A stretch of DNA of 64,000 bases from an uncultured Dehalococcoidia bacterium (GTDB lineage: Bacteria > Chloroflexota > Dehalococcoidia > Dehalococcoidales > UBA1222). A model generated the notes under the pieces. It did no database searches, had not been told where the DNA came from, and saw only the letters and a list, made by a program, of their open reading frames with translations. Where the stretch lies: NCBI GenBank assembly GCA_903844845.1, contig CAIMVG010000008.1:85664-149663 (forward strand), read 5' to 3'. Both the position numbers and the translations under genes were made by a program. Below, piece by piece: positions 3,667 to 44,543 of the stretch (position 1 is its first letter; every line of letters begins with the position of its first letter).

Positions 3667-4176
3667 ATGAAAAAGAACATCCCGAATAGAGGCGACAAAC
3701 AGGTGCTTATAAAACGGATCTTGCCGGTTTTGGCTGCCATGCTTTTCTTATCCCTGCCCGCAGGCTGCGCGGAGGGGCAAAGCAGTGCGGCCTCCCGGGT
3801 TATAGGGCTTACCGCTCCTCCGATGACCAGCGACGGCGGAGGGGTACAACACCAGATAATCATCCAGGGGGCGTCATTCACACCGCTGGTGGTTGATGTT
3901 AAAACCGGGGATACGGTAACCTGGGTCAACCGGGATACAACGCCTCACACCGTAACGTCGATACGCTATTTCCAGGACGAAGACGACATCAGCCATGTCT
4001 ACATCGGGGAAAACTTCGACAGCGGCTATATCGCGCCAGGTGATTCCTACACACGCGCTTTTTCGGATACCGGCAATTTCTGGTACTTCTCGCTGCCGCT
4101 GCACAATGCCTTGCCGATACCGCAATACCTGCAACTTGTCCAGGAAATCGCTGTCGGTTCGGTGGTGGTAAATTGA
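3667..4176 (+). CDS. cupredoxin-fold lipoprotein lacking the type-1 Cu cysteine
   Basis: Lipobox LSLPAGC. GDTVTWVNRDTTPHTVTS resembles the plastocyanin/amicyanin N-terminal His region. The C-terminal ligand loop reads WYFSLPLHNALP, so there is no Cys. Confidence 0.65.
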   Translation: MKKNIPNRGDKQVLIKRILPVLAAMLFLSLPAGCAEGQSSAASRVIGLTAPPMTSDGGGVQHQIIIQGASFTPLVVDVKTGDTVTWVNRDTTPHTVTSIRYFQDEDDISHVYIGENFDSGYIAPGDSYTRAFSDTGNFWYFSLPLHNALPIPQYLQLVQEIAVGSVVVN

Positions 4177-4208
4177 AAGGGCTTTTAACAAACACTGGGT
4201 TGGGAAAA

Positions 4209-4670
4209 ATGAGCCAGCCGACGAAGTGGTTCCCGGGGCTCATCGGACGAAGCTGTTTTTGCATAATGCTAATTGCGGTCATGGGCGCCTGCAGCAATGC
4301 CCGGGAAAGCACCATCACGGCCACGACCGCGGCAACTCAATCCGTATTAAAGCCCTCCGGTCAGATCGTTTCGATAGGACAGTCGAGTTTCTCACCGCAG
4401 CAGGTCCAGGTGAAGATAGGGGAGAGTGTCACCTGGGTTAACGAGGACACCTCCAAGCATACCGTCACGTCCTGGCACGAATATTGGGACCAGGATAATG
4501 TGGCGCGGGTAGACATAGGGGACTTATGGGACAGCGGCACCCTTGTTCCCGGGCAGTCGTATTCCCATATTTTCACCGAGGCGGGCACGTTTGAATATGT
4601 CAGCCTTCCGCTGCTTCTGTATTTCCAGTATCAGCAGAACCCCAAGGGAGTGGTCGTGGTAAGCGGGTGA
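4209..4670 (+). CDS. cupredoxin-fold lipoprotein paralogue lacking Cu ligands
   Basis: Lipobox AVMGAC. GESVTWVNEDTSKHTVTS. Ligand loop FEYVSLPLLLYFQ has no Cys, His or Met. The ORF-track start is 4173 (TTG); ATG 4209 is preferred. Confidence 0.6.
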   Translation: MSQPTKWFPGLIGRSCFCIMLIAVMGACSNARESTITATTAATQSVLKPSGQIVSIGQSSFSPQQVQVKIGESVTWVNEDTSKHTVTSWHEYWDQDNVARVDIGDLWDSGTLVPGQSYSHIFTEAGTFEYVSLPLLLYFQYQQNPKGVVVVSG

Positions 4671-4759
4671 TAAACGCTTCTGAGGCGGCCAGGTTGATCC
4701 CCCGGGGACCCTTTTTAATAAAGTCCCCCTGCAAGTAAACCTGGCGTTCATAAGCTTTC

Positions 4760-4999
4760 TCAAGTCAACCGATAAACCTGCGGCCCCGAATCATCGCCGC
4801 ATTCCGCCAGTCCCACCGCCACAAGGCGGTCCAGAGCATCCTGGACCTTCCGAAAATTTGCACCCCCGAATATATGCACGAAAACCGCTTGATCGAACCG
4901 TGTGTGCGGATGCCGGGACATGAAATCCAGGATTTCGAGACACATATGATCGAGATCGGTTTCTTCGCCCGTCGCTCTGGAAATCTCCGTGCACTGCAT
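4760..4999 (-). CDS. small hypothetical protein (79 aa)
   Basis: ORF preceded by AAAGGGG about 7 nt upstream of the ATG. No recognisable motif. Confidence 0.4.
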   Translation of the reverse strand: MQCTEISRATGEETDLDHMCLEILDFMSRHPHTRFDQAVFVHIFGGANFRKVQDALDRLVAVGLAECGDDSGPQVYRLT

Positions 5000-5298
5000 G
5001 TTCTGCCCCTTTCAACCATAAATCCCCGGATTTTCGGCGGTGATCTGAAGGTTTGTTATCATCATAAATATAAACCGTTTTACGGATGTTTGTGATATCC
5101 CGGGGTACCGAATAAAGGACAATTCCAATCACGTGAAATGAGATGAAAAATGCGGGCATTATCCGCGCGGATAACCACGTGAGCCATTGCGCCAAATACA
5201 GGGCAAGAGACCGCCCCGTTCCCGTAAAAGGGCGAACGTAGTATCATGGATATTGGACAGGGTACCGATTAAAGCCGTGCAACTGCGAGGAAAGCATC

Positions 5299-6495
5299 AT
5301 GAAATACGATTTCGCCAAAGTGTGCGACCGGACTAGGACGGATTGCGTCAAATGGGACGCGGCCCCCGCCATCTTCGGCCGCAAAGATGTAATACCGATG
5401 TGGGTGGCCGATATGGATTTCCCGGTGGCCCCGCCGATAGTCGAGGCGCTTAAAAAACGCATCGGGCATGAGTTTTACGGTTACACCCTGCCAGGGGGTG
5501 CCGTCATCGATTCTGTGGTCGAGCGCATGAAGCGGAAATTCAACTGGAAGATTGAACGGGACTGGGTAGTTCTCACTCCCGGTGTCGTGCCCGCCCTGCA
5601 TGCAGCCGTTAAAGCGCTGACCCACCCGGGAGACGAGATCATCCTGCAGGAGCCGGTATATTTCCCCTTCTTCTCGGCAGTGACCTCTAACGGGTGCCGC
5701 ATATCCAACAATGAACTCAAGTTCATCGACGGGCGTTACGAAATGGACTATGCCGGCCTCGAAAACAAATTCCGTGAACAGCCCGGCCCGCTCCCCGCCC
5801 CCAACAGGGTCAAAGGCATCATTTTCTGCAACCCCCACAACCCGATAGGGCGGGTTTGGAATAAGGAAGAGGTCACGAGGATGGGTGAGATAGTCATCCG
5901 CCACGGCGGGACCGTCATTTCCGACGAGATCCACTGCGAGATACTTTTCAAAGGCAATACCCATACCCCTTTCGGCGCTATCTCCGAAGAATTCGAGCAA
6001 AACTGCATCGTATGCATGGCGCCGAGCAAGACGTTCAACCTGGCGGGGCTGGAAGCGTCTTCTATCATCATCCCGAATAAAAAACTGCGCGACGGATTCG
6101 CCGCGGCCAGGATGGGCATCCTTCCGGAACCGAACCTGTTCGGCCTGACTGCCATGGAGGCGGCTTACCGGCTGGGCGACGAGTGGCTGGAACAACTGCT
6201 GGATTATCTCCAGGTCAACCTGGACTTCGCCATCGCATATTTCGAAACCAGGATACCCAAAATAAAGCCCGTCAGGCCGGAGGGCACCTATCTCGTTTGG
6301 CTCGACTGCCGGGCGCTGGGCATGGACGATACAGGACTGAGGAGTTTCATGCGCGAAAAAGCGAGCGTGGGGTTGGACGACGGTTTCCTGTTCGGCGCAG
6401 CGGGCGCCGGCTTCCAACGGATGAACATAGCCTGCCCCGGGAGCATCCTCAAAGATGCCCTGGGCAGGATTGAAAAAGCGGTGAATTCGCTGTAG
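5299..6495 (+). CDS. patB: PLP-dependent C-S lyase / cystathionine beta-lyase (MalY/PatB family aminotransferase class I/II)
   Basis: N-terminus MKYDFAKVCDRTRTDCVKWD is typical of PatB/MalY. PLP-Lys motif APSKTFNLAG. SD GAGGAAAG. Confidence 0.85.
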   Translation: MKYDFAKVCDRTRTDCVKWDAAPAIFGRKDVIPMWVADMDFPVAPPIVEALKKRIGHEFYGYTLPGGAVIDSVVERMKRKFNWKIERDWVVLTPGVVPALHAAVKALTHPGDEIILQEPVYFPFFSAVTSNGCRISNNELKFIDGRYEMDYAGLENKFREQPGPLPAPNRVKGIIFCNPHNPIGRVWNKEEVTRMGEIVIRHGGTVISDEIHCEILFKGNTHTPFGAISEEFEQNCIVCMAPSKTFNLAGLEASSIIIPNKKLRDGFAAARMGILPEPNLFGLTAMEAAYRLGDEWLEQLLDYLQVNLDFAIAYFETRIPKIKPVRPEGTYLVWLDCRALGMDDTGLRSFMREKASVGLDDGFLFGAAGAGFQRMNIACPGSILKDALGRIEKAVNSL

Positions 6496-6534
6496 TTTTC
6501 GGTGAAATAAGCGCCGGACGATGGAGGAAGAAAT

Positions 6535-7152
6535 ATGGCGGCAATCGTAATAACCGTATACTCGGATTTTGTCTGACCGTTCTGCTATATCGCCGAGCGA
6601 TCCAGCCTGGTCAGGCTGGCAAACGATTTTGACGTCAAGATTGAATGGAAGGGCTTCGAACTGCACCCCGAAACGCCTGTCGGCGGCGTGCTCATCGAGG
6701 ACATCTTCCCCGGGTACCGGGATGGGGGCAGGCTGGAATACATGCGTGATTTTGCCGCCAGCTTCGGCATCCAGGGCATGGCTTCGCCCGAGAGGCTGCC
6801 GAATACGCGCCGCATACTCGCTATGGCCGAGTATGCCCGCGAGACGGGCAAGCTGGACACTTTCCGCATACTTGCGATGAACGCACGCTGGGAAAACGGC
6901 AGCGACCTCGAAGATAAAAAGGTCCTCGAAACACTGGCCGCCGCTTCCGGACTCGACCAGCAGAAAGCTTTGGCAGCCAGCGGGTCGCCTGATTACCTGT
7001 CGCGCATAGATGCCATACGGGCTGAAGCCGGGAGGCTGGGGATAGACGGCATACCGACCTTCATCATCGGAAAACAGATGGTGGTGGGGTGCCAATCTTA
7101 TGAAATCCTGGCTGATGCCGTGATCAAGGCCGGGGGGTTGCGGCGGAGTTAA
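6535..7152 (+). CDS. DsbA/FrnE-like thiol:disulfide oxidoreductase with in-frame TGA (candidate selenocysteine) in the redox motif
   Basis: ATG 6535 with GGAGGA SD at 6523-6528. Translation is MAAIVITVYSDFV-TGA(6574-6576)-PFCYIAERS... and stays open and in frame into ORF 6688..7152. C-terminal GIPTFIIG is typical of the DsbA fold. Confidence 0.65.
6602..6619 (+). promoter_or_regulatory. SECIS-like hairpin downstream of the in-frame TGA
   Basis: CCAGCC-UGGUCA-GGCUGG: 6-bp GC-rich stem, loop contains GGUC. The stem starts 25 nt after the UGA. Confidence 0.4.
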
Positions 7153-7182
7153 CCCCAAAGCAGAGTATCTTGGGAGGCCGTT

Positions 7183-7824
7183 ATGAGAATTCAATGGTTC
7201 GGGCAATCTGCTTTCCTGCTGGTTTCGGATTCGGGCCTGCGGGTCATCACGGACCCGTATGACCCAATAATCGGCTACGGAGATATAGCCGAGGCCGCCG
7301 ACGCCGTCACCGTCAGCCACGAGCACCGGGACCACAATTACGTCAAGGGAGTTAAAGGCAACCCGGTTGTAATGAAAGGGGCGGGTACCCATAAAACGAA
7401 TGGCATCGAATTCCGGGGGATAGCCACCGCACATGACCAAAACCATGGGAAAGAAAGAGGGAACAACACGGTCTTCTGTTTCGCCGTCGACGGCATCAGG
7501 ATCTGCCACCTGGGGGACCTGGGGCATACCCTGGACAAAGCGGAGGTCGGAGCGATTGGGCGGGTCGACCTGCTGCTGGCGCCTGTGGGCGGGTTTTATA
7601 CCATCGACCATTCCGAAGCAACCGAAATAACGGCGGCATTGGCACCGCGCATCGTTATCCCTATGCATTACAGAACGGAAAAGAGCGGGCAAAACCTCGC
7701 CCCGGTGGACGATTTCCTGACAGGGAAGAAGAACATTATCAGAACCCGCGAGCCATGGTTTGAGATAACGCCGGATGTTTTACAGCGAACCGTTCAAATC
7801 GTTGTATTGCCGCATACGAAATAG
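7183..7824 (+). CDS. MBL-fold metal-dependent hydrolase (UPF0173-like)
   Basis: MRIQWFGQSAF N-terminus. HEHRDH (HxHxDH) motif. Confidence 0.8.
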   Translation: MRIQWFGQSAFLLVSDSGLRVITDPYDPIIGYGDIAEAADAVTVSHEHRDHNYVKGVKGNPVVMKGAGTHKTNGIEFRGIATAHDQNHGKERGNNTVFCFAVDGIRICHLGDLGHTLDKAEVGAIGRVDLLLAPVGGFYTIDHSEATEITAALAPRIVIPMHYRTEKSGQNLAPVDDFLTGKKNIIRTREPWFEITPDVLQRTVQIVVLPHTK

Positions 7825-7831
7825 CCGGAAG

Positions 7832-8440
7832 CTATTTAGTCGGCCGCTTGTCGGCTTGCGGCTTTTTAGCCCGCTTTGGAAGATAATCGGGTATCTTGGC
7901 TTTAGTGTCTGTGATTTTCAGATATGAGAAATGCCCGAAAGCCAATCTAGATGTGATTTTGATATCGATGGCACCCAGCCCCGTCAGGCCGGATATGGCG
8001 ACATGGGGGACCTCCCCGGTAGCCAGAGTGAAATGTATCGGGATGGTTTCATCCGAGAGGGGCTTAAGCCACGCAGCTTTGGTGTGGACGATGTTTTCAC
8101 AGGCCTTGCCGCCGATGCTCACCTCGTGATCGATATCGGGAAGATAAAGCGGAAAGAGGCTCCGGTTGCGGCAGATAATCTCGCCGTCCAGGCGCACGCC
8201 GTTTACGAAACCCCCGGCGGCCGAAACAAGATTGCCCCGGATGGCGTTCCATATAGACCCCAGGATAGAGGTCGGGGTCGCTTTGAAATCGGGCGCGACG
8301 CTGACGGACCTAAAGGTTATGACGAGCCTGGAATAAGCGTAGACAGCCAGGGCGCATATCACAATGGCAAGCAGGGTGAGGCCCCCCAGGCCAGCCAGAA
8401 ACCAGACAATAACCTCTTGAAGGACCACCATAATGTCCAA
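7832..8440 (-). CDS. membrane-anchored LEA_2/NDR1-like protein (tentative)
   Basis: N-terminal TM helix followed by a beta-rich domain. The family call rests on recalled resemblance only. Confidence 0.45.
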   Translation of the reverse strand: MDIMVVLQEVIVWFLAGLGGLTLLAIVICALAVYAYSRLVITFRSVSVAPDFKATPTSILGSIWNAIRGNLVSAAGGFVNGVRLDGEIICRNRSLFPLYLPDIDHEVSIGGKACENIVHTKAAWLKPLSDETIPIHFTLATGEVPHVAISGLTGLGAIDIKITSRLAFGHFSYLKITDTKAKIPDYLPKRAKKPQADKRPTK

Positions 8441-8459
8441 ATGATAACATACTAGTCTG

Positions 8460-8490
8460 TTGACAACCTGGAAACGTCAGGTGTATATTA
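8460..8490 (+). promoter_or_regulatory. sigma70-type promoter of higBA
   Basis: TTGACA (8460-8465), 18-nt spacer, TATATT (8484-8489). Located 20 nt upstream of the GTG start. Confidence 0.5.
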
Positions 8491-8508
8491 CAGCCTTAGG
8501 GTGTATAG

Positions 8509-8805
8509 GTGGAATTAGAGTTCTCTTCGAATCGCCTGGATAAAGCAAGCACCAGCTTCTCAGAAGCTAACCGGCTTTTTGGCGTCGCCATTGGCCGGAA
8601 GTATATCCAACGACTTGGCTTGTTGAGGGCAACCGAAAAGTTTAGCCAACTGTACGGGTTTCAGGCCCTAAAATTGCATCATTTGAAAGGGAACCGCGAA
8701 GGACAATTCGCGATATCCCTGACCGGAAACTATCGGCTTATTATTGAGAAAATTCAAGAAGACAAAGTCCTGATTTTGGATTTGGAGGATTATCATGGTG
8801 ACTAA
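8509..8805 (+). CDS. higB: type II toxin HigB (plasmid maintenance system killer family)
   Basis: LKGNREGQFAISLTGNYRLIIE...LDLEDYH matches the HigB-like signature. GTG start. Overlaps the downstream HTH antitoxin gene. Confidence 0.75.
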   Translation: MELEFSSNRLDKASTSFSEANRLFGVAIGRKYIQRLGLLRATEKFSQLYGFQALKLHHLKGNREGQFAISLTGNYRLIIEKIQEDKVLILDLEDYHGD

Positions 8806-9082
8806 AACTGCAGCCTATCCCGACATAGCAATCCCCCCGGGTGAGTACCTTGCAGAGGAGATCAAGGCCCGAAGCCTATCTCAGAAGGAATTGGCCAAAC
8901 GCATGGGAAGGCCCACAAACGCCATAAATGAAATCATCAACGGGAAGAAATCCATCACTGCTGAGACCGCCTTGCAGCTTGAAGAAGCAATGCCGGAGAT
9001 ACCTGCCCGCTTCTGGTTAAACCTGGAAACTGATTACCAGCTTACTAAAATGCTGATAAGCAGGCATTCTAACCGGGGATAA
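8795..9082 (+). CDS. higA: type II antitoxin HigA (XRE-family HTH)
   Basis: PGEYLAEEIKARSLSQKELAKRMGRPTNAINEIINGKKSITAETA, a HigA-type HTH. Confidence 0.85.
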   Translation: MVTKTAAYPDIAIPPGEYLAEEIKARSLSQKELAKRMGRPTNAINEIINGKKSITAETALQLEEAMPEIPARFWLNLETDYQLTKMLISRHSNRG

Positions 9083-9088
9083 GAATCG

Positions 9089-9271
9089 ATGGACTGGACA
9101 GAACACAAACAGCAACTGCTTAAGGACCCTGAATTCAAAAAGGAATACGAGGCGCTCACGCCAGAGTACAAGTCTGCCTTCGCCAGGATTCGTAGGCGCC
9201 AGGCTAAGGGATTAACTCAGGGTCAATTGAAAAAAGGATATCCCAAGCAAGGGCAGGAACTACGTCAGTAA
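9089..9271 (+). pseudogene. truncated XRE-type antitoxin remnant
   Basis: LLKDPEFKKEYEALTPEY...KGLTQGQL matches antitoxin N-termini. The HTH is cut off after helix 1 and the ORF runs into the 3' end of mazF. Confidence 0.35.
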
Positions 9272-9604
9272 TGTCCCGAGTTTTTCAAACACCTCTGACA
9301 TCGTGTCGCTTGGCGATGTGCATATCCACTCTGTATCCCTGGCTCGCCAATCGAGGCTCTTGACCTGGTCGGAGAGAATTGCTCCAGACACCGGTAATCC
9401 CGGTGGAAGTAGCACTTCAAAAGGATAGCCCTTTACCTGGCTGGTAACCGGACACAGGATAATCAGTCCAGTCTTGCTGTTATAGCTTCGCGGCGAAATC
9501 ACCACAGCAGGACGGCGGCCGGATTGCTCGTGCCCTGTCTGCGGATTCAAAGTAATCCAGACCATGTCTCCGCGTTGAGGGATATAGCCGCCCGGATTCA
9601 CCAT
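9260..9604 (-). CDS. mazF: type II toxin MazF/PemK endoribonuclease
   Basis: PQRGDMVWITLNPQTGHEQSGRRPAVVISP...ILCPVTSQVKGYPFEV. Confidence 0.85.
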   Translation of the reverse strand: MVNPGGYIPQRGDMVWITLNPQTGHEQSGRRPAVVISPRSYNSKTGLIILCPVTSQVKGYPFEVLLPPGLPVSGAILSDQVKSLDWRARDTEWICTSPSDTMSEVFEKLGTLLT

Positions 9605-9840
9605 GCTTCATGCCCCACTGCCGCGCCAGTATCAATCTCATCATGCAAATTGTCTTCGGTTACGTTAGCCAGAAGTTGTTTGAGTGTCAGCTTTGGTTTA
9701 AACACCGGGGTAATAATGAGTTTCCCGTCGGCCAGTGAAACCTCGACAGCCGTTTCCTTTTGTAGATTCACTTCCTCCGCGAAGGATTTGGGGATACGTA
9801 GAGCCAGACTGTTCCCCCATTTCTGTATTTTTGTTTTCAT
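9598..9840 (-). CDS. mazE: type II antitoxin MazE (AbrB/SpoVT family)
   Basis: MKTKIQKWGNSLALRIPKSFAEE looped-hinge motif. Overlaps the mazF start by 7 nt. Confidence 0.85.
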   Translation of the reverse strand: MKTKIQKWGNSLALRIPKSFAEEVNLQKETAVEVSLADGKLIITPVFKPKLTLKQLLANVTEDNLHDEIDTGAAVGHEAW

Positions 9841-10335: not shown

Positions 10336-11418
10336 ATGGCATCCAGACCCGGGATTTACAGAAATACGGCGCGCATGAACAAACGCGTCATCCCTTTTAT
10401 ACTGCTAGCAGCCGTACTTTCTGCGGGGGCCGTATATTTTCTTTTACACATTTACAACATCCCTAACGCCGCCAGTGTTGAACGCGCCAGTATAGACCGG
10501 GCCCTCAAGGTTCTTATCTCCATCGCCGCCGTGGTTTTTATCTGGGTGGTTACCGCCCTGGCATACGTGGTAATTTTCAACAGGCAGAAACGGGGCGACA
10601 CGGGATTCGGAGCGCATATCACCGGCAATCGGAAGCTGGAGACCGTCTGGACCGTCATACCGCTCCTGATAGTCATCGGCGTTTCGTTCTACGGCGGGTT
10701 CGTCCTTCGGGACATCACACCCGAGCCACCTCCCGGCGTACTTAACGTGGATGTAACCGCCTTCCGCTGGGGCTGGAAATTCTATTACCCCGATTATAAC
10801 GTGAATTCTCTTTATCTCGAACTCGAGGTCAACCGCCAGGTTGAATTCCACATGGCGACCCTCGACGTCGTACACGGCTTCTGGATACAGGAGTTCGGGC
10901 CCAAGATGGACATCGTGCCCGGGATGATGATGCACCTTGACGTCACGCCCGACAAGACAGGGCAGTACCTCCTGGTATGCGACCAGCTGTGCGGGGCAGG
11001 CCATACCGGCATGACCGCGCCGGTTTATGTGGTTTCCTCCGGCGATTTCCAGACATGGGTGACCCAGCACAAAGCCCCGCCCGCAACCACGCCCGCGTCA
11101 ACCGCTCTTTCCACCGCCGGGGAAGCGGCGCAACTGGGCTCCGCGGTGTACGGCAGCTACTGCGCCTCATGCCACGGGGCGACAGGGCAGGGCGGCGCAG
11201 GCCCCAGGCTGGTTGGTGCAGGCAACACGCTGGCTAAATACAATACCGCGCAGGGACTCCAGGGGTTCATCTCGGCCGCCATGCCGCTCAACGCCCCGGG
11301 CAGCCTTAGCGCCGCGGAGTACGGCGAACTCACGGCGTTCATACTGGTGCAGAACAACTGGATCGGGAGCGGGACAACGTTCGACCCGGCCGGCCTGTCC
11401 TCCGTGCCGATAAAATAG
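10336..11418 (+). CDS. coxB: cytochrome c oxidase subunit II with fused C-terminal cytochrome c domain (caa3-type)
   Basis: CuA site CDQLCGAGHTGM. Heme c motif CASCHG. Two N-terminal TM helices. The start may be the internal MNKRV. Confidence 0.9.
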   Translation: MASRPGIYRNTARMNKRVIPFILLAAVLSAGAVYFLLHIYNIPNAASVERASIDRALKVLISIAAVVFIWVVTALAYVVIFNRQKRGDTGFGAHITGNRKLETVWTVIPLLIVIGVSFYGGFVLRDITPEPPPGVLNVDVTAFRWGWKFYYPDYNVNSLYLELEVNRQVEFHMATLDVVHGFWIQEFGPKMDIVPGMMMHLDVTPDKTGQYLLVCDQLCGAGHTGMTAPVYVVSSGDFQTWVTQHKAPPATTPASTALSTAGEAAQLGSAVYGSYCASCHGATGQGGAGPRLVGAGNTLAKYNTAQGLQGFISAAMPLNAPGSLSAAEYGELTAFILVQNNWIGSGTTFDPAGLSSVPIK

Positions 11419-11431
11419 GGATTCCGAAATA

Positions 11432-13282
11432 ATGAAAAGATTCTTCTCGATTGGGCTAGTGCGCGGGATCCTGGGCGGGACCGCGGGTACGGGCACAGGC
11501 GCAGGCGCGGTGATGCTGATACGCATGGCGATGGGATTACCCGCGTGGGACGAGGGGCAGGTCTGGGCCGCTGGCATCGTCGCCGGCGTTGCCGGCTACC
11601 TTATCGCGCTCGGCCTTTTCAACTACTGGGCAAGGTGGTTCGTCGGCGCACGCGACAGGTTCGAACCGAATATGCCGTCGCGTTCCTGGACTCGTTTCCT
11701 GAGTGTCAGCACCGACCATAAAACCATCGGCATCCAATACCTGGCGACCGCCCTGATATTCCTGCCCGTAGCGGTGGCCCTCCAGCTGATCGCCAGGGCG
11801 GACCTTTCCAAAATCGGGTTCAGTCTGAACCCCGAGACCTATACCGCGCTCATCAGCGACCACGGCATCGTGATGCTTTTCATCGTAGCCATACCCGCTT
11901 TCGCCGGGCTCATGAATTACTTCGTGCCGCTCCAGATAGGTGCGAAGGACATGGCGTTCCCGCGGCTGAACGCGCTCTCTTTCTGGCTCGTGCCGGCAGC
12001 GGGCATACTCATGGTGACCGCCCTCGGGGCGGGGGGATTCGATACGGGCTGGACCATATACCCGCCGCTTTCCGTCTCCTACCAGCCCCTCGGGATGAAC
12101 CTCGTGCTGATCGGCGCCTACCTCGCAGGCTTTTCTTCGATACTCAGCGCCGTCAACATCCTGACGACCGTGATAAAGCTGCGCGCCCCTGGCATGGGCA
12201 TCTTCCGCATGCCGATATTCGTATGGACTGCCGTCTCCACCACCATACTGTCGCTCCTCTTCACCCAGTTCGTGTCCATGGCCCTGCTGTTCGTCCTGCT
12301 TGAACGGACTTTGAACATGCCTTTCTTCGGCACCGCAGGCGGGGGCCAGCCCCTGCTTTACCAGTACATGTTCTGGTTTTACTCGCACCCGGCAACCTAT
12401 ATCTTCGCCCTGCCGGGCCTCGGCATCATAAGCGAGATAATACCAGTGTTCGCCCGCAAACCCCTCTTTGGATACAAGGCAGTCGCCCTTTCCAGCGTAG
12501 GGATCGCTATCGGCGGCACGATGGTATTCGGTCATCATATGTTCGCCGCAGGCATCCCGGCGCTTCTGCGCATCCCGTTCATGATAACCACGATGCTGGT
12601 GGCCGTGCCGACGGGCGTGAAGGTTTTCGCCTGGGTGGCGACCGCGTGGGGCGGCAAGCTCAGGATGGGCTCGCCCCTGCTTTTCGTCCTCTCGGCCATC
12701 GTCATCTTCCTCATCGGAGGGCTGACAGGCGTGATACAGGCTGTCGTCCCGGTGAATCTCTACGTGCACGATACCTACTGGATAGTCGCCCATTTCCACA
12801 GCGTTTTGTTCGGCGGCTTCCTTTTCCCGCTGATGGCAGGAATATATTACTGGTTCCCCAAGATGACCGGGCGCCGCATGAGCGAGGGGCTGGGACGGGC
12901 GCAATGGTGGCTCATGACCCTGGGCTCGGCGCTGCTGATATTGCCGATGTTCGTCCTGGGGCTCGACGGCCTGCGCCGCCGTACCGCCGATTATTCCAAC
13001 ATGGATTTCCGCCCGCTGGTGATCGCCACCGCCGTCGGCGGCTTCCTGATATTCCTGGGACTGGTGGTGCTGTTCTATAACATCCTGCGGAGCCGCCGTA
13101 AAGGCGCTCCCGCCTGGGACAACCCCTGGGAAGGCCGCACCCTGGAATGGATGACTTCTTCTCCGCCGCCTTACGACAATTTCCCCGCCACGCCTGTGGT
13201 GACCGGCGAGCCTTATGATTACGGCATATCAAGCAGGCCCTACGCCGATGTCACCCGCAGCAACCCTTCAAAGAACCGTTAG
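11432..13282 (+). CDS. ctaD: cytochrome c oxidase subunit I
   Basis: WFYSHPATYIFALPG, HHMFAAG and VAHFHSVLFGG heme-copper oxidase motifs. About 12 or more TM segments. Confidence 0.95.
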   Translation: MKRFFSIGLVRGILGGTAGTGTGAGAVMLIRMAMGLPAWDEGQVWAAGIVAGVAGYLIALGLFNYWARWFVGARDRFEPNMPSRSWTRFLSVSTDHKTIGIQYLATALIFLPVAVALQLIARADLSKIGFSLNPETYTALISDHGIVMLFIVAIPAFAGLMNYFVPLQIGAKDMAFPRLNALSFWLVPAAGILMVTALGAGGFDTGWTIYPPLSVSYQPLGMNLVLIGAYLAGFSSILSAVNILTTVIKLRAPGMGIFRMPIFVWTAVSTTILSLLFTQFVSMALLFVLLERTLNMPFFGTAGGGQPLLYQYMFWFYSHPATYIFALPGLGIISEIIPVFARKPLFGYKAVALSSVGIAIGGTMVFGHHMFAAGIPALLRIPFMITTMLVAVPTGVKVFAWVATAWGGKLRMGSPLLFVLSAIVIFLIGGLTGVIQAVVPVNLYVHDTYWIVAHFHSVLFGGFLFPLMAGIYYWFPKMTGRRMSEGLGRAQWWLMTLGSALLILPMFVLGLDGLRRRTADYSNMDFRPLVIATAVGGFLIFLGLVVLFYNILRSRRKGAPAWDNPWEGRTLEWMTSSPPPYDNFPATPVVTGEPYDYGISSRPYADVTRSNPSKNR

Positions 13283-13291
13283 GAGCAACGA

Positions 13292-13861
13292 TTGGACGCA
13301 TACGTATCACGCGATAAAACCGAACGAGGCGCTTCCCGGATGGGGATGATCGTCTTCCTGGCGTCCGAGGTTTTCCTTTTCGGTTCGCTTTTCTTCACCT
13401 ATTTCTACTTGAAGATAAACACGAAACCCTGGCCGCCTGAGGGCGTTGCCCTGGACCCGAAATTCGCAGCCATAAATACCGGGATACTGCTTTTCGGAAG
13501 CCTGCTCGTATGGGCTGCTTCCAGGCTCGTCAGGCGGGGCAGGATGGCTGCCGTCCAGGCTGCCCTCTTCACCGCATCCGTGCTCGGATTTGTTTTCCTG
13601 GGCATCACAGGCTGGGAGTGGCGGCATGAATCGTTCAGGGCGTGGACGAACGCCTACGGCTCGATATTCTTCACGCTGACCGGATTCCATGCCCTGCATG
13701 TCTTCGGGGGGGCGATGCTGATGCTCGCCCTGGCGATACGAACGCGCCGCGGCAAATACACCTTCGCCACCCACACGGGCATCGAAGTGGGAGCGCTTTA
13801 CTGGCATTACGTGGACTTCATATGGATACTGGTCTTTACGACCCTGTTCTTTATCCGCTGA
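13292..13861 (+). CDS. ctaE: cytochrome c oxidase subunit III
   Basis: 189 aa, 5 TM segments, FHALHVFGG motif. TTG start with AGGAG SD. Confidence 0.85.
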   Translation: MDAYVSRDKTERGASRMGMIVFLASEVFLFGSLFFTYFYLKINTKPWPPEGVALDPKFAAINTGILLFGSLLVWAASRLVRRGRMAAVQAALFTASVLGFVFLGITGWEWRHESFRAWTNAYGSIFFTLTGFHALHVFGGAMLMLALAIRTRRGKYTFATHTGIEVGALYWHYVDFIWILVFTTLFFIR

Positions 13862-30574: not shown

Positions 30575-31726
30575 TTAAACGATCAACCCCTTCAATTCGG
30601 CGGCTTCATCGGTCTTCTCCCAGGTAAATCCGGGCAACTCCCTCCCGAAATGCCCGAAGGACGCCGTCTTTCTGTAGATCGGGCGCCGCAGGTCCAGCGT
30701 TTCGATGATGCCCCCGGGGGTCAGATCGAACAGGCTGCGCACGGCATTCTCCAGTTTCGCCTCGTCGATCTTCCCTGTCCCCATGGTGTCGAGCATCACA
30801 GAAACGGGGTCGGGGCGGCCGATGGCATAAGCCAGCTGGACCGTGCACCTGTCCGCCAGCCCCGAGGCAACTATATTTTTTGCGATGTACCTTGCCATAT
30901 AAGCGGCGGAGCGGTCGACCTTGGTCGGGTCTTTGCCTGAAAAAGCTCCCCCGCCGTGCGGGCAGCTGCCGCCGTAAGTGTCCACTATTATCTTTCGCCC
31001 CGTGAGGCCGGTGTCGGCTTCGGGCCCTCCCTTGGTGAATTCGCCGCTGGGGTTGATGATGTACTGGATATCCGCGGCGTAGTTCGCAGGTATCACCCTG
31101 TCGATTATCAGTTCCCTGACCGTTTCTGCGATCTCCCTGTTGGAAACGCCTTCGGCGTGCTGTGTCGAGAGCACCACTTTCTCGACCGAAACAGCTTTCA
31201 GCCCCGCGTACCTCACGGTGACCTGGGTTTTTGCGTCCGGGCGGAGCCACGGCACGGTCCCTGCCCTGCGCAGTTCGCTGTGGCGCTGCATGATTTTATG
31301 CGCGATGGAAATCGGAAGGGGCATGAGTTCAGGCGTCTCGTTCACGGCATACCCGAACATCATGCCCTGGTCCCCTGCACCTATGCCGCCGCCTTCGCGC
31401 GAGACCGCGTTGCTTATATTCGGCGACTGCCGGCTTATGGAGGTCTGGTAAACGCAGGCGTCGCAATCGAACCCCGAGGAGATGTCCCCGTAACCTGCGT
31501 CTCTGATGACACCCCGCGCGATTTCCGCGAAATTGACCGTGGCATGCGATGACATCTCGCCTGCGACGATGACCAGGTCCTTGGCCAGCATAGTTTCACA
31601 GGCGACGCGAGCCATTGGGTCCTGTTCCAGGTATGCGTCCAAAACTGCATCGGAAATCTGGTCCGCCAGCTTGTCAGGGTGGCCTTCGGATACGGACTCC
31701 GAACTGAACGAAAAATCCTTTGCCAT
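30575..31726 (-). CDS. metK: S-adenosylmethionine synthetase
   Basis: SEGHPDKLADQ, GAGDQGMMFGYA, GGGAFSGKDPTKVDRS. Confidence 0.97.
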   Translation of the reverse strand: MAKDFSFSSESVSEGHPDKLADQISDAVLDAYLEQDPMARVACETMLAKDLVIVAGEMSSHATVNFAEIARGVIRDAGYGDISSGFDCDACVYQTSISRQSPNISNAVSREGGGIGAGDQGMMFGYAVNETPELMPLPISIAHKIMQRHSELRRAGTVPWLRPDAKTQVTVRYAGLKAVSVEKVVLSTQHAEGVSNREIAETVRELIIDRVIPANYAADIQYIINPSGEFTKGGPEADTGLTGRKIIVDTYGGSCPHGGGAFSGKDPTKVDRSAAYMARYIAKNIVASGLADRCTVQLAYAIGRPDPVSVMLDTMGTGKIDEAKLENAVRSLFDLTPGGIIETLDLRRPIYRKTASFGHFGRELPGFTWEKTDEAAELKGLIV

Positions 31727-31869: not shown

Positions 31870-31900
31870 CTGAAGCCCTCCTTTTTCGCTTTGTAAGCGA

Positions 31901-32003
31901 CCTATCGTTTCCCCTTGCGGGCTGGCATTGGCACCTTTAAGAAAGACTAAAGGATGCCGGGTGGGTCATCGGGCCAGGGCCCTCGCCACCACTCTTGATA
32001 GAA
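31901..32003 (-). promoter_or_regulatory. SAM-I (S-box) riboswitch aptamer
   Basis: The minus strand reads UCUAUCAAGAGUGGUGGCGAGGGCCCUGGCCCGAUGACCCACCCGGCAUCC...AAAGGUGCCAAUGCCAGC...AAACGAUAGG. This matches the S-box core (P1 CUAUC/GAUAG, GAUGA kink-turn, AAGGUGCCAA). Located upstream of metK. Confidence 0.85.
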
Positions 32004-32101
32004 AGATTATTCAGTTGTTAAGCGATTAAATTATAGGGTGCGCCTTGCTTTGTGTCAATCTTGACGCAAGGAACCAATACGGGACGGGGTTGCGCATAAC
32101 C

Positions 32102-32656: not shown

Positions 32657-33916
32657 ATGTCTGATACCAATCACAGAGTCGTAATCACAGGCATGGGCAT
32701 GCTCGACCCGCTCGGCCTCGACACCGCCAGCACCTGGAAAGGCCTTATCAGCGGTAAATCGGGCATAACCCGTATAACCCAATTCGACACGGCCGGTTAT
32801 GACACTCAGATAGCCGGGGAGGTCAAGGGTTTCGAACCGACCGATTTCATGAGCGTTAAGGAAGCCAAGCGCATGGACCGTTTCGCGCAGCTGGCAGTGG
32901 CGGCAGCCAAACAGGCGCTTGCCCAATCCGGCCTCGTGGTAGACTCCTCCAACTGCGATTGCATCGGAACAGTGCTCGGTTCGGGGATAGGGGGCATCAA
33001 CACCCTTTTCGAACAGGCTAAAATCCTTATCGAAAAAGGGCCTGACAGGCTCAGTCCTTTCACCGTTCCGATGATGATCGCCGACATGGCAGCAGCACAG
33101 GTTTCGATCACACTCGGGCTCAAGGGACCAAATTTCTGCACGACCTCGGCCTGCGCGTCAGGAGCCGACGCCATCGGAGTGGCTTTTGAATCCATCCGCC
33201 GGGGAGATTCCCCCGTGATGTTTGCGGGAGGGACCGAATCCGCCATCAACCCCATCGGCATCGCCGGCTTCAGCGCCCTGAAGGCGCTTTCCACCCGAAA
33301 CGACAGCCCGGAAACCGCATCGCGCCCCTTCGATGCAACCCGCAACGGCTTCATCATCAGCGAGGGCGCGGCCGTACTGGTGCTCGAAAGCCTGGAGCAT
33401 GCCACCGCGCGCGGGGCGCGCATACTCGGAGAGATACTGTCTTACGGCGCGAGCGCCGACGCTTTCCACATGACCCAGCCCACCGAAACCGGTGAAGGAG
33501 GCGTGCGTTCAATGAACCGCGCGCTCGAACGTGCCGGACTTAAACCCAAAGATATCGATTATATCAATGCTCACGGCACGTCCACCCAGCTCAACGACAA
33601 GATGGAAACAGCCGCCATCAAGACGGTTTTTGGCGAATACGCCGGAAAGATCCCTGTCAGCTCCACCAAATCCATGACAGGGCACCTCATCGGGGCCGCG
33701 GGGTCTCTTGAAGCCGCCATATGCGCACTCGTTATAACCGAGGGCATCATCCCCCCCACCACCAACTATAAAAATCCCGACCCCAACTGCGACCTCGACT
33801 ACGTGCCCAACAAGGCACGCAAGGCAAAAGTCGACATCGCTCTGTCCAACTCTTTCGGCTTCGGCGGGCACAACACCACGCTTATCCTGGGCCGTTACAC
33901 GGGGGCAGGGATTTGA
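32657..33916 (+). CDS. fabF: beta-ketoacyl-ACP synthase II
   Basis: Active-site TSACASG, HGTSTQLND, GHLIGAAG, NSFGFGGHN. Confidence 0.95.
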   Translation: MSDTNHRVVITGMGMLDPLGLDTASTWKGLISGKSGITRITQFDTAGYDTQIAGEVKGFEPTDFMSVKEAKRMDRFAQLAVAAAKQALAQSGLVVDSSNCDCIGTVLGSGIGGINTLFEQAKILIEKGPDRLSPFTVPMMIADMAAAQVSITLGLKGPNFCTTSACASGADAIGVAFESIRRGDSPVMFAGGTESAINPIGIAGFSALKALSTRNDSPETASRPFDATRNGFIISEGAAVLVLESLEHATARGARILGEILSYGASADAFHMTQPTETGEGGVRSMNRALERAGLKPKDIDYINAHGTSTQLNDKMETAAIKTVFGEYAGKIPVSSTKSMTGHLIGAAGSLEAAICALVITEGIIPPTTNYKNPDPNCDLDYVPNKARKAKVDIALSNSFGFGGHNTTLILGRYTGAGI

Positions 33917-44219: not shown

Positions 44220-44543
44220 ATGCCTGTTTACGAGTACGAATGTGATAAATGCGCCGTCAAGTTCGAAGTTAAGCGAGGTTTCCACGAAACCGGCGGGAAT
44301 GTTTGCCCTGAATGCGGAGGCGAAGGCCGTCAGGTCTTTTTTGCCGCACCGCTGCACTTCAAAGGTTCGGGTTTTTACTGCACAGAAAACCGAAAAGGAA
44401 AAGACACTGAAGCTGAAGCCGTGAAAACGGCAAGCGAAGCGAAAGTCAACCCTCCCTCGGGAGATGCGGCGAAACCACCTGTTAAACCGGCAACTGCATC
44501 AACAGAAACCAAAATAAACCCAGTTAAAAAAGAGCCTGCCTGA
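44220..44543 (+). CDS. FmdB-family zinc-ribbon protein
   Basis: MPVYEYECDKC...CPECGG. Confidence 0.8.
   Translation: MPVYEYECDKCAVKFEVKRGFHETGGNVCPECGGEGRQVFFAAPLHFKGSGFYCTENRKGKDTEAEAVKTASEAKVNPPSGDAAKPPVKPATASTETKINPVKKEPA

What the first reader, a model, noticed from the sequence alone, without database searches (positions are those of the whole stretch)
6535..7152. Candidate selenoprotein: DsbA/FrnE-like oxidoreductase with UGA at the first Cys of the CxxC motif and a SECIS-like hairpin
The ORF track only reports 6688..7152. The same frame is open back to ATG 6535, which has a GGAGGA SD at 6523-6528, with one exception: a TGA at 6574-6576. Translation gives MAAIVITVYSDFV-[TGA]-PFCYIAERSSLVRLANDF... 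The DsbA/FrnE family has D-x-x-C-P-x-C-Y at exactly this N-terminal position, so the TGA replaces the nucleophilic redox cysteine. That is the classic Cys/Sec-interchangeable site. A hairpin CCAGCC-UGGUCA-GGCUGG (6602-6619) begins 25 nt downstream. Its loop carries GGUC, as the apical loop of the E. coli fdhF SECIS does. The UGA-to-loop spacing of 31 nt is within the range used in bacterial SECIS models. TGA acts as an ordinary stop elsewhere in this window (for example 745-747 and 33914-33916), so a reassigned genetic code is unlikely. The gene lies between a PatB-type C-S lyase and an MBL hydrolase on the same strand.
Basis: partly seen in the sequence, partly recalled or inferred. Interest (0 to 1): 0.8.

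Follow-up and report, generated by a model that had tools for sequence, protein, structure and literature searches.

The report
Selenocysteine-containing FrnE/DsbA-like oxidoreductase gene
This is a real but ordinary case: a cytoplasmic DsbA/FrnE-type redox protein whose first active-site cysteine is replaced by selenocysteine (UGA plus a recoding hairpin), belonging to a selenoprotein family known since 2005 that gene callers routinely truncate.

Summary
Frame 6535-7152 (+) is open apart from TGA 6574-6576 and encodes a 205-residue DsbA-domain protein (Pfam PF01323, E 1e-28). The TGA sits at the first Cys of the CPFC motif. In 79 homologous genomic loci the same codon is TGA in 33, from at least 7 phyla, and TGT or TGC in the other 46.

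The Sec forms of the window's clade share a hairpin 28-46 nt from the UGA (window 6602-6619: 7 bp, loop GGUC). It meets every criterion of the published bacterial SECIS model and is largely absent from the Cys forms.

The TGA is identical in six independent metagenome assemblies and in four 82-87% relatives. The 51 codons upstream of the annotated start evolve as coding sequence. TGA ends 17 of 45 other genes, so the code is not reassigned.

The family, "DsbA-like protein, UxxC", has been a published selenoprotein family since 2005, and Dehalococcoidia are known Sec users. This is therefore a new member of a known kind.

Not shown: selA, selB, selC and selD in this genome. None lies in the window or within 10 kb either side of it.

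The parts
6523..6528 (+). Shine-Dalgarno GGAGGA, 6 nt before the start codon
   Evidence: Read directly. A GGAGG motif sits at the same place in relatives L001 and L086-L088.
6535..7152 (+). Full selenoprotein coding sequence: 205 codons including UGA-Sec at codon 14, with stop TAA at 7150-7152. FrnE/DsbA-like thiol-disulfide oxidoreductase.
   Evidence: Translation. Pfam DSBA PF01323 E 1.1e-28 over residues 6-195. FrnE 5CNW E 6e-20 over residues 4-196. Codons 1-51 differ between relatives mainly at third positions, 30:18:109.
6574..6576 (+). In-frame UGA, the predicted selenocysteine codon (residue 14)
   Evidence: Aligns with TGT/TGC in 46 genomic homologues and with TGA in 33. Identical in six independent assemblies.
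6574..6585 (+). Redox motif U-P-F-C (Sec14 ... Cys17)
   Evidence: Aligned with CPFC of full-length homologues and with 22-CPWC-25 of FrnE.
6602..6619 (+). SECIS apical hairpin: 7-bp stem CCAGCCU/AGGCUGG, loop GGUC at 6609-6612
   Evidence: Energy -11.0 kcal/mol, 32 nt from the UGA to the loop. 91.7% of cells paired in 24 Sec homologues against 60.4% in 13 Cys homologues; compensatory G-C to C-G and C-G to U-A changes.
6577..6600 (+). Lower helix between the UGA and the SECIS hairpin (PFCYIAER codons). Probably a by-product of the conserved peptide.
   Evidence: Paired in 81.9% of cells in Sec forms and 72.6% in Cys forms, so it is not specific to the Sec forms.
7054..7056 (+). Codon of Pro174 in the conserved GIPTF motif, taken to be the thioredoxin-fold cis-proline
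   Evidence: Invariant column P174. The cis-proline role is inferred from knowledge of the fold.
7090..7092 (+). Codon of Cys186 (VVGCQ), a third cysteine invariant in this clade
   Evidence: Invariant in alignment A1. GCQ in the window's clade against GAQ in more distant FrnE-like groups and in FrnE itself.
6688..7152 (+). The truncated 154-aa ORF that gene callers report. It is an annotation artefact of the UGA.
   Evidence: ORF list. The database protein P0001 and its closest relatives are 136-189 aa.
5299..6495 (+). Upstream neighbour: PatB-family C-S lyase, 39 nt before the start codon
   Evidence: TIGR04350 E 1e-137.
7183..7824 (+). Downstream neighbour: MBL-fold metal-dependent hydrolase, 30 nt after the stop codon
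   Evidence: PF13483 E 3.7e-54.

Best explanation
Positions 6535-7152 encode a 205-residue cytoplasmic FrnE-type DsbA-like thiol-disulfide oxidoreductase. Its nucleophilic active-site residue is selenocysteine, in the motif U14-P-F-C17.

Proposed translation steps:
1. Translation starts at AUG 6535.
2. When UGA 6574 reaches the A site, SelB carrying Sec-tRNA(Sec) is recruited by the hairpin at 6602-6619. This hairpin has a 7-bp stem and a GGUC loop, 32 nt downstream of the UGA.
3. Sec is inserted instead of termination, and translation runs on to UAA 7150.

Proposed enzyme action: the protein cycles between selenol/thiol and selenenylsulfide (U14-C17) states, and reduces or isomerises disulfides in cytoplasmic partners, as D. 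radiodurans FrnE does with its CPWC motif.

Shown here: the gene structure, Sec/Cys pairing across homologues, a conserved Sec-specific hairpin, coding-type selection through the UGA, family membership, and the reality of the TGA.

Inferred: actual Sec insertion, SelB binding, cytoplasmic location (the active site at residue 14 leaves no room for a signal peptide), and reductase or isomerase activity.
For: (1) The TGA aligns with the first Cys of CPFC in full-length homologues and of CPWC in FrnE 5CNW (E 6e-20).

(2) Of 79 homologous loci in GTDB genomes, 33 have TGA at that codon and 46 have TGT or TGC. The TGA forms occur in Chloroflexota, Gemmatimonadota, Marinimicrobia, Calditrichaceae, Myxococcota, Binatia and Nitrospirota, each with an intact N-terminal extension and start codon.

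(3) The hairpin meets all four rules of the published bSECIS model (PMC13188914): loop of 3-9 nt, stem of 4-16 bp, G in the first two loop positions, 16-37 nt spacing, and MFE <= -7.5. Here the values are 4 nt, 7 bp, GG, 32 nt and -11.0 kcal/mol. The chance rate is about 0.8% per position.

(4) The hairpin is 91.7% paired in 24 Sec forms, with two pairs changed on both sides. It is 60.4% paired in 13 Cys forms, where the four loop-proximal pairs are mostly broken. The Sec forms keep SSLVRL with the Arg codon AGG, whereas most Cys forms have S-T-V/L-P-R-L with other Arg codons.

(5) The TGA and the whole gene are identical in six independent assemblies that differ elsewhere. Relatives of 82-87% identity keep the TGA and the hairpin.

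(6) Differences in codons 1-51 fall 30:18:109 by codon position, with 92 synonymous and 45 nonsynonymous codons. The rest of the gene gives 102:110:395.

(7) TGA is an ordinary stop in 17 of 45 genes.

(8) Dehalococcoidia are documented Sec users (PMC4918011, PMC13326102), and DsbA-like UxxC is a documented selenoprotein family (PMC1088965, PMC1794560, PMC5029168).
Against: No selA, selB, selD or tRNA-Sec was found in the 64-kb window or in about 10 kb beyond each end. The rest of the genome could not be read.

No other selenoprotein gene was found in the window.

Covariation in the hairpin is thin: most pairs are simply invariant, and the hairpin lies in conserved coding sequence.

No Rfam family matches the element.

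The spacing of 32 nt is near the upper end of the model's range.

There is no protein-level evidence.
Confidence: 0.9

Rival explanations
1. The gene is a decayed or N-terminally truncated DsbA-domain gene. The UGA terminates translation, and at most a 154-aa product from GTG 6688 is made, lacking the redox motif.
For: This is what gene callers report for this gene and its closest relatives. Sec machinery was not seen near the window.
Against: The 51 upstream codons are under coding-type selection in this frame.

The ATG, the Shine-Dalgarno site and the whole N-terminal peptide, including PFC, are conserved across phyla.

The same TGA recurs in 33 genomes with an associated hairpin.

A product starting at residue 52 would lack the N-terminal 51 residues carrying the redox motif, which the Pfam DSBA match covers from residue 6.
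Confidence: 0.04
2. The UGA is read through, but not as Sec. Examples would be near-cognate Cys or Trp insertion, or a lineage that has lost Sec decoding and tolerates leaky read-through.
For: Sec machinery is unverified for this genome. The product would still be a functional CxxC or similar protein if Cys were inserted.
Against: TGA is an efficient ordinary stop in 17 of 45 genes.

A hairpin specific to the Sec forms is maintained, including a Ser codon-family switch (AGC to TCC) matched by a compensating change on the 3' arm in this lineage. That makes sense only if a SECIS-binding factor is in use.

Related Dehalococcoidia do have the Sec trait (PMC4918011, PMC13326102).
Confidence: 0.04
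3. The TGA is a sequencing or assembly error for TGC or TGT.
For: A single-base difference would be enough.
Against: The region 6500-7152 is identical, TGA included, in five JGI assemblies and one ENA assembly from different samples. These assemblies differ from the window elsewhere by 1-46 SNPs. Relatives of 82-87% identity also carry TGA.
Confidence: 0.01

Closest known systems
"DsbA-like protein" selenoprotein family (COG2761 / PF01323, UxxC; "form 1" in the 2026 review). First described from the Sargasso Sea metagenome (PMC1088965). Later found in Anaeromyxobacter, Desulfovibrio and Desulfotomaculum (PMC1794560) and in 41 organisms in a 2016 survey (PMC5029168).
   Same: The Pfam domain is the same. 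Sec sits at the first position of the UxxC motif, near the N-terminus. A bSECIS hairpin with G in the apical loop follows the UGA. Cys-containing homologues are widespread. An Anaeromyxobacteraceae homologue (L020) belongs to the same clade as the window's gene.
   Different: Nothing essential differs. This copy comes from a Dehalococcoidales-like metagenomic population. I did not find this family reported for that group in the papers read, but I did not check BSepDB entries. The invariant third Cys (GCQ) of this clade is not mentioned in the passages read.
FrnE of Deinococcus radiodurans (DR_0659; PDB 5CNW and others), a cytoplasmic DsbA-family disulfide reductase/isomerase (PMC8945050)
   Same: It is the best solved-structure match: E 6e-20 over residues 4-196, with CPWC aligned to UPFC. 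Both have the N-terminal active site without a signal peptide and the cis-Pro motif G(I/V)P(T/F)F.
   Different: FrnE uses Cys, not Sec. FrnE has a C-terminal tail with a CXXXXC motif that helps regenerate the active site. The window protein ends at residue 205 with no such tail, and no tail motif was detected in the homologues examined. It has Cys186 where FrnE has Ala (GAQ).
E. coli fdhF SECIS / the general bacterial SECIS model (PMC13188914)
   Same: It is a stem-loop in the coding sequence downstream of the UGA, with a small apical loop starting with GG-U. From my own knowledge, the fdhF loop is GGUC, with G23 and U24 contacting SelB.
   Different: The loop lies 32 nt from the UGA, at the far end of the 16-37 nt range. 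No bulged U is evident. A separate lower helix fills the gap. No Rfam model matches.

Membership tests
Bacterial selenoprotein gene (Sec-UGA recoding) | In-frame UGA aligned with Cys in homologues (Sec/Cys pair) at a catalytic position | tested here: met
   the TGA aligns with the first Cys of CPFC/CPWC.
Bacterial selenoprotein gene (Sec-UGA recoding) | UGA-containing orthologues in other organisms with conserved flanks on both sides | tested here: met
   33 of 79 genomic loci from at least 7 phyla. Three more close relatives from metagenomes.
Bacterial selenoprotein gene (Sec-UGA recoding) | bSECIS downstream of the UGA: loop 3-9 nt, upper stem 4-16 bp, G in the first two loop positions, 16-37 nt spacing, MFE <= -7.5 kcal/mol (PMC13188914) | tested here: met
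   Loop GGUC (4 nt), 7 bp, 32 nt, -11.0 kcal/mol. Conserved in Sec forms and not in Cys forms.
Bacterial selenoprotein gene (Sec-UGA recoding) | selA, selB, selC (tRNA-Sec) and selD present in the same genome | not testable with these tools
   None in the window or within about 10 kb either side. The trait is documented in the class Dehalococcoidia (PMC4918011, PMC13326102).
Bacterial selenoprotein gene (Sec-UGA recoding) | Selenium actually incorporated (75Se labelling or mass spectrometry) | not testable with these tools
   This needs an experiment.
DsbA-like selenoprotein, form 1 (PF01323, UxxC) | DSBA Pfam domain above the gathering score | tested here: met
   PF01323: 100.8 bits against a cut-off of 25.6, residues 6-195 (Sec replaced by Cys for the search).
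DsbA-like selenoprotein, form 1 (PF01323, UxxC) | Sec at the first position of a UxxC motif | tested here: met
   U14-P-F-C17.
FrnE subfamily of DsbA (cytoplasmic) | [quoted passage not shown] | tested here: met
   The active site is at residues 14-17, directly after the first predicted strand. The best PDB match is FrnE. No signal-peptide predictor was run; the call is from the sequence.
FrnE subfamily of DsbA (cytoplasmic) | C-terminal CXXXXC tail (present in many members but not all; PMC8945050) | tested here: not met
   The protein ends at residue 205 with no tail and no CX4C. No CX4C tail was detected in any of the homologues printed. The motif is not obligatory for the subfamily.

The most novel reading that the evidence does not exclude
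The window's clade could be a distinct three-residue variant of FrnE. In this reading the invariant Cys186 (VVGCQ) takes over the role of FrnE's missing C-terminal CXXXXC tail, either resolving or regenerating the U14-C17 selenenylsulfide or binding a metal. By thioredoxin-fold homology, Cys186 lies next to the cis-Pro loop and the active site.

A further point in the same reading: the SECIS is nearly identical at the nucleotide level across 6 or more phyla, which would reflect horizontal spread of the gene together with its SECIS as one cassette.
Probability: 0.25. Interest if true: 0.4.

Novelty: new member of a known kind. Interest (0 to 1): 0.3.

Why it matters
The main value is for annotation. 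This gene and dozens of orthologues are stored in public protein sets as 136-189-residue fragments without their active site. As a result, selenoproteome counts and the redox-enzyme inventories of these uncultured lineages are understated.

It adds a Dehalococcoidales-like freshwater population to the hosts of the DsbA-like selenoprotein family.

It also offers a clean comparative set for studying how a SECIS is gained and lost inside a coding sequence: Sec forms, Cys forms, and one Cys form with a fossil hairpin.

It does not change what is known about Sec decoding.

Tried and rejected
- **Rfam:** gathering thresholds over the whole window, and E <= 10 over 6500-6720, gave no SECIS family; the only hits in 6500-6720 were noise.
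- **tRNA scans:** the window and 34 related loci have no tRNA-Sec.
- **Other in-frame TGA genes:** 106 mechanical candidates and 17 UGA-plus-hairpin sites were checked. Apart from 6574, they are genuine stops followed by terminators (for example 56245 after purA, and 36347) or out-of-frame positions.
- **Sec machinery among large window ORFs:** these turned out to be IF-2, RecJ, FabF, PurA, MtaB, Asd, MetK, PNPase, a helicase, an MMPL transporter and a histidine kinase, with no selA, selB or selD.
- **Walking beyond the window ends:** about 10 kb each way shows topoisomerase IB, response regulators, EF-Tu, ribosomal proteins and NusA, but no Sec genes.
- **NCBIfam:** there is no dedicated model for this selenoprotein, only a sub-threshold C-terminal match to the Rcas_1661 (seleno)lipoprotein family.
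- **Operon conservation:** PatB-DsbA-MBL gene order was found only in the 85% relative L001, so it is not family-wide.
- **Promoter and terminator scan of 4600-8600:** uninformative.
- **Lower helix 6577-6600 as part of the SECIS:** it is equally present in Cys forms, so it is not Sec-specific.
- **Metagenome scan:** it was biased toward Cys forms because one search pattern contained DFVCPFCY.
- **Structure prediction:** not run, because the tool returns no coordinates and the FrnE sequence match already fixes the fold.

Full report
**Observation**

- ATG 6535 follows GGAGGA (6523-6528) by 6 nt.
- The frame runs to TAA 7150-7152, with a single interruption at TGA 6574-6576.
- The translation is MAAIVITVYSDFV-[UGA]-PFCYIAERSSLVRLANDF...
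- The mechanical ORF list reports only GTG 6688..7152, 154 aa.
- With Sec written as Cys, the 205-residue product matches Pfam DSBA (PF01323) at E 1.1e-28 over residues 6-195. The Pfam match therefore extends through the 51 residues that the annotated ORF omits.
- The flanking genes are on the same strand. They are a PatB-family C-S lyase (TIGR04350, E 1e-137) and a Lactamase_B_3 MBL-fold hydrolase.

**The hairpin**

ViennaRNA folds 6602-6619 as a 7-bp stem (CCAGCCU/AGGCUGG) closed by a GGUC tetraloop. Its energy alone is -11.0 kcal/mol. The 67-nt stretch from the UGA folds to -22 kcal/mol, with z = -2.3 against shuffles.

The 2026 review of prokaryotic selenoproteomes (PMC13188914) states the bacterial SECIS model: apical loop of 3-9 nt, upper stem of 4-16 bp, a G in the first two loop positions, 16-37 nt between the UGA and the loop, and MFE <= -7.5 kcal/mol. 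The window element has a 4-nt loop, 7 bp, GG, 32 nt and -11.0 kcal/mol, so all criteria are met.

A strict version of this test (at least 7 Watson-Crick pairs) is satisfied at only about 0.8% of positions in the window, on either strand.

**Homologues: Sec/Cys pairing**

A protein search showed a telling pattern. The closest database proteins are all N-terminally short (136-189 aa), including ones named as Chloroflexi or Dehalococcoidia. Relatives at about 50% identity are full length (about 205 aa). In the alignment these full-length proteins carry YSDFVCPFC(Y/F)IAE(R/Q)S... exactly where the window has YSDFV-UGA-PFCYIAERS.

I then fetched 80 homologous loci from GTDB species genomes and read the DNA.
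- Of the 79 loci that include the motif, 33 have an in-frame stop at that codon, always TGA. The other 46 have TGT or TGC.
- The TGA forms come from Dehalococcoidales and other Chloroflexota, Gemmatimonadota, Marinimicrobia, Calditrichaceae, many Myxococcota including an Anaeromyxobacteraceae MAG, Binatia and Nitrospirota.
- Each has an intact start codon 10-13 codons upstream of the TGA.

This is the standard Sec/Cys-pair criterion, met many times over.

**The hairpin is tied to the UGA**

In the 24 Sec forms of the window's clade, the segment 28-46 nt from the UGA is nearly invariant: GCAGCCUGGUCAGGCUGC. Pairing over the 7 pairs is 91.7%. It falls to 19-47% when the 3' arm is slid by 1-3 columns.

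Two pairs show changes on both sides:
- The closing G-C is C-G in the window and L001. This requires a Ser codon-family switch from AGC to TCC, together with Gln to Ala on the 3' side.
- C-G is U-A in the Binatia copy.

Two further positions show G-C to G-U wobble.

In 13 Cys forms of the same clade, pairing is 60.4%, and the four loop-proximal pairs are intact in only 1-2 of 13 sequences. The peptide there is mostly S-T-V/L-P-R-L instead of SSLVRL, and the Arg codon is not AGG.

The caveats are real. Covariation is thin, the sequences are related, and the element lies in conserved coding sequence. The contrast between Sec and Cys forms is the informative part.

A lower helix (6577-6600) is about equally paired in both sets (81.9% against 72.6%). 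It is probably a by-product of the conserved PFC(F/Y)(I/V)AE codons.

**Not an error, not a pseudogene, not a reassigned code**

- Positions 6500-7152, TGA included, are identical in five JGI assemblies and one ENA assembly from different samples. These assemblies differ from the window elsewhere by 1-46 SNPs.
- Four relatives at 82-87% protein identity (L001, L086-L088) keep the TGA, the ATG, the GGAGG site and the same CCAGCC...GGCUGG hairpin.
- Among these five sequences, differences in codons 1-51 fall 30:18:109 over codon positions 1:2:3, with 92 synonymous and 45 nonsynonymous codon differences. The rest of the gene gives 102:110:395 and 333:201. So the stretch upstream of the "annotated" start is translated in this frame, through the UGA.
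- TGA terminates 17 of 45 likely genes in the window. One is FabF, whose match to TIGR03150 runs to the last model position.

**What it is and how it probably works**

The best solved relative is FrnE of Deinococcus radiodurans (5CNW, E 6e-20, residues 4-196), with its 22-CPWC-25 aligned to U14-P-F-C17.

FrnE is described as a cytoplasmic DsbA-family disulfide reductase/isomerase that contributes to cadmium, diamide and oxidative-stress tolerance. Its C-terminal CXXXXC tail helps regenerate the active site (PMC8945050).

The window protein has its active site at residue 14, which leaves no room for a signal peptide. I therefore infer that it is cytoplasmic and cycles between selenol/thiol and selenenylsulfide states.

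It differs from FrnE in two ways. It lacks the CXXXXC tail, and no such tail was detected in the homologues examined. It also carries an invariant Cys186 in VVGCQ, where FrnE and the more distant groups (Nitrospirota, Asgard and others) have GAQ. By thioredoxin-fold homology this position lies beside the cis-Pro loop, near the active site. That is my inference and was not tested.

Sec insertion itself is inferred. SelB with Sec-tRNA(Sec) would bind the GGUC hairpin when the UGA is in the A site.

**What could not be shown**

- No tRNA-Sec, selA, selB or selD is present in the window or within about 10 kb beyond either end.
- No second selenoprotein gene is present in the window.
- At class level the trait is documented. 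Dehalogenimonas alkenigignens has selC, selA, selB and selD and Sec-containing SelD and FdhA (PMC4918011). Two Dehalococcoidia MAGs are listed with 46 and 49 selenoproteins (PMC13326102).

**Comparison with what is known, and novelty**

"DsbA-like protein" (COG2761 / PF01323, UxxC) was reported as a new selenoprotein family from the Sargasso Sea in 2005, with nine sequences and a predicted SECIS figure (PMC1088965). It was then found in Anaeromyxobacter dehalogenans, Desulfovibrio desulfuricans and Desulfotomaculum reducens (PMC1794560), and in 41 organisms in a 2016 survey (PMC5029168). The 2026 review lists it as "form 1" (PMC13188914).

The window gene meets the domain and motif definition of that family. 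It is a new member of a known kind.

The gene order PatB-DsbA-MBL is shared only with the 85%-identical relative L001, so it is not a family-wide operon. In one assembly patB carries a nonsense mutation while the selenoprotein gene is intact.

**Verdict**

Interest is modest. The finding corrects a systematic annotation truncation and gives a neat comparative set for SECIS evolution, but a specialist would not be surprised.

Noticed in passing
L023:655-714 (Leptospiraceae MAG CAZPFB010000168.1): This is a Cys form (TGC) that still encodes SSLVRL and keeps a pairable hairpin, GCAGCUUGGUCAGGUUGC. It looks like a recent Sec-to-Cys conversion with a fossil SECIS.
   Followed up: partly
L042, L051, L054-L056, L058, L059, L061, L065, L072 (Nitrospirota), about 17-35 nt after their TGA: A second, more distant Sec-containing subgroup (UPFCYIGEG..., GAQ instead of GCQ) uses a different hairpin, UCGGCGA-GGGCA-UCGUCGA, placed closer to the UGA. 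The family therefore has at least two SECIS types.
   Followed up: partly
window 7090-7092 (Cys186, VVGCQ): This third cysteine is invariant in the window's clade, in both Sec and Cys forms, with one exception (L027). More distant FrnE-like groups and FrnE itself have Ala here. No homologue examined showed FrnE's C-terminal CX4C tail.
   Followed up: partly
window 6688-7152; proteins P0001-P0020 and others: Public protein sets hold this gene and its Sec-containing orthologues as N-terminally truncated fragments (136-189 aa), some starting right after the CxxC motif. This is a systematic annotation artefact.
   Followed up: yes
window 6211 (patB codon 305); L166: One ENA assembly of the same population is identical over 10.7 kb except C to T at 6211. 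That change turns patB Gln305 into TAG, so the neighbouring C-S lyase is truncated there while the selenoprotein gene is intact.
   Followed up: yes
window 31899-32004 (-) and 30575-31726 (-): A SAM riboswitch (RF00162, 53.5 bits) lies upstream of the S-adenosylmethionine synthetase gene (metK).
   Followed up: partly
window 10336-13861 (+), 3667-4670 (+): There is an aa3-type cytochrome c oxidase operon: COX2 with a cytochrome c domain, COX1 and COX3, followed by a UbiA-family gene. There are also two tandem cupredoxin-like genes. This sits in a genome whose closest relative is labelled Dehalococcoidales, which suggests an oxygen-respiring member of a group better known for anaerobes.
   Followed up: no
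window 8509-9082 (+) and 9260-9840 (-): Two toxin-antitoxin pairs lie just downstream of the locus: HigB-like toxin with an HTH antitoxin, and PemK/MazF toxin with a MazE antitoxin.
   Followed up: no
window 44220-44543 (+): This is a small zinc-ribbon protein whose sequence (MPVYEYECDKCAVKFE...CPECGG) looks, from my own knowledge, like the FmdB family; no family search was run. The 2026 review lists FmdB as having Sec forms (UxxU). Here it is the all-Cys form.
   Followed up: no
window 46100-48526 (+): An 808-residue protein made of nine divergent InlB B-repeat (Flg_new_2) domains after an N-terminal hydrophobic stretch that looks like a membrane segment. It is probably a surface protein.
   Followed up: no
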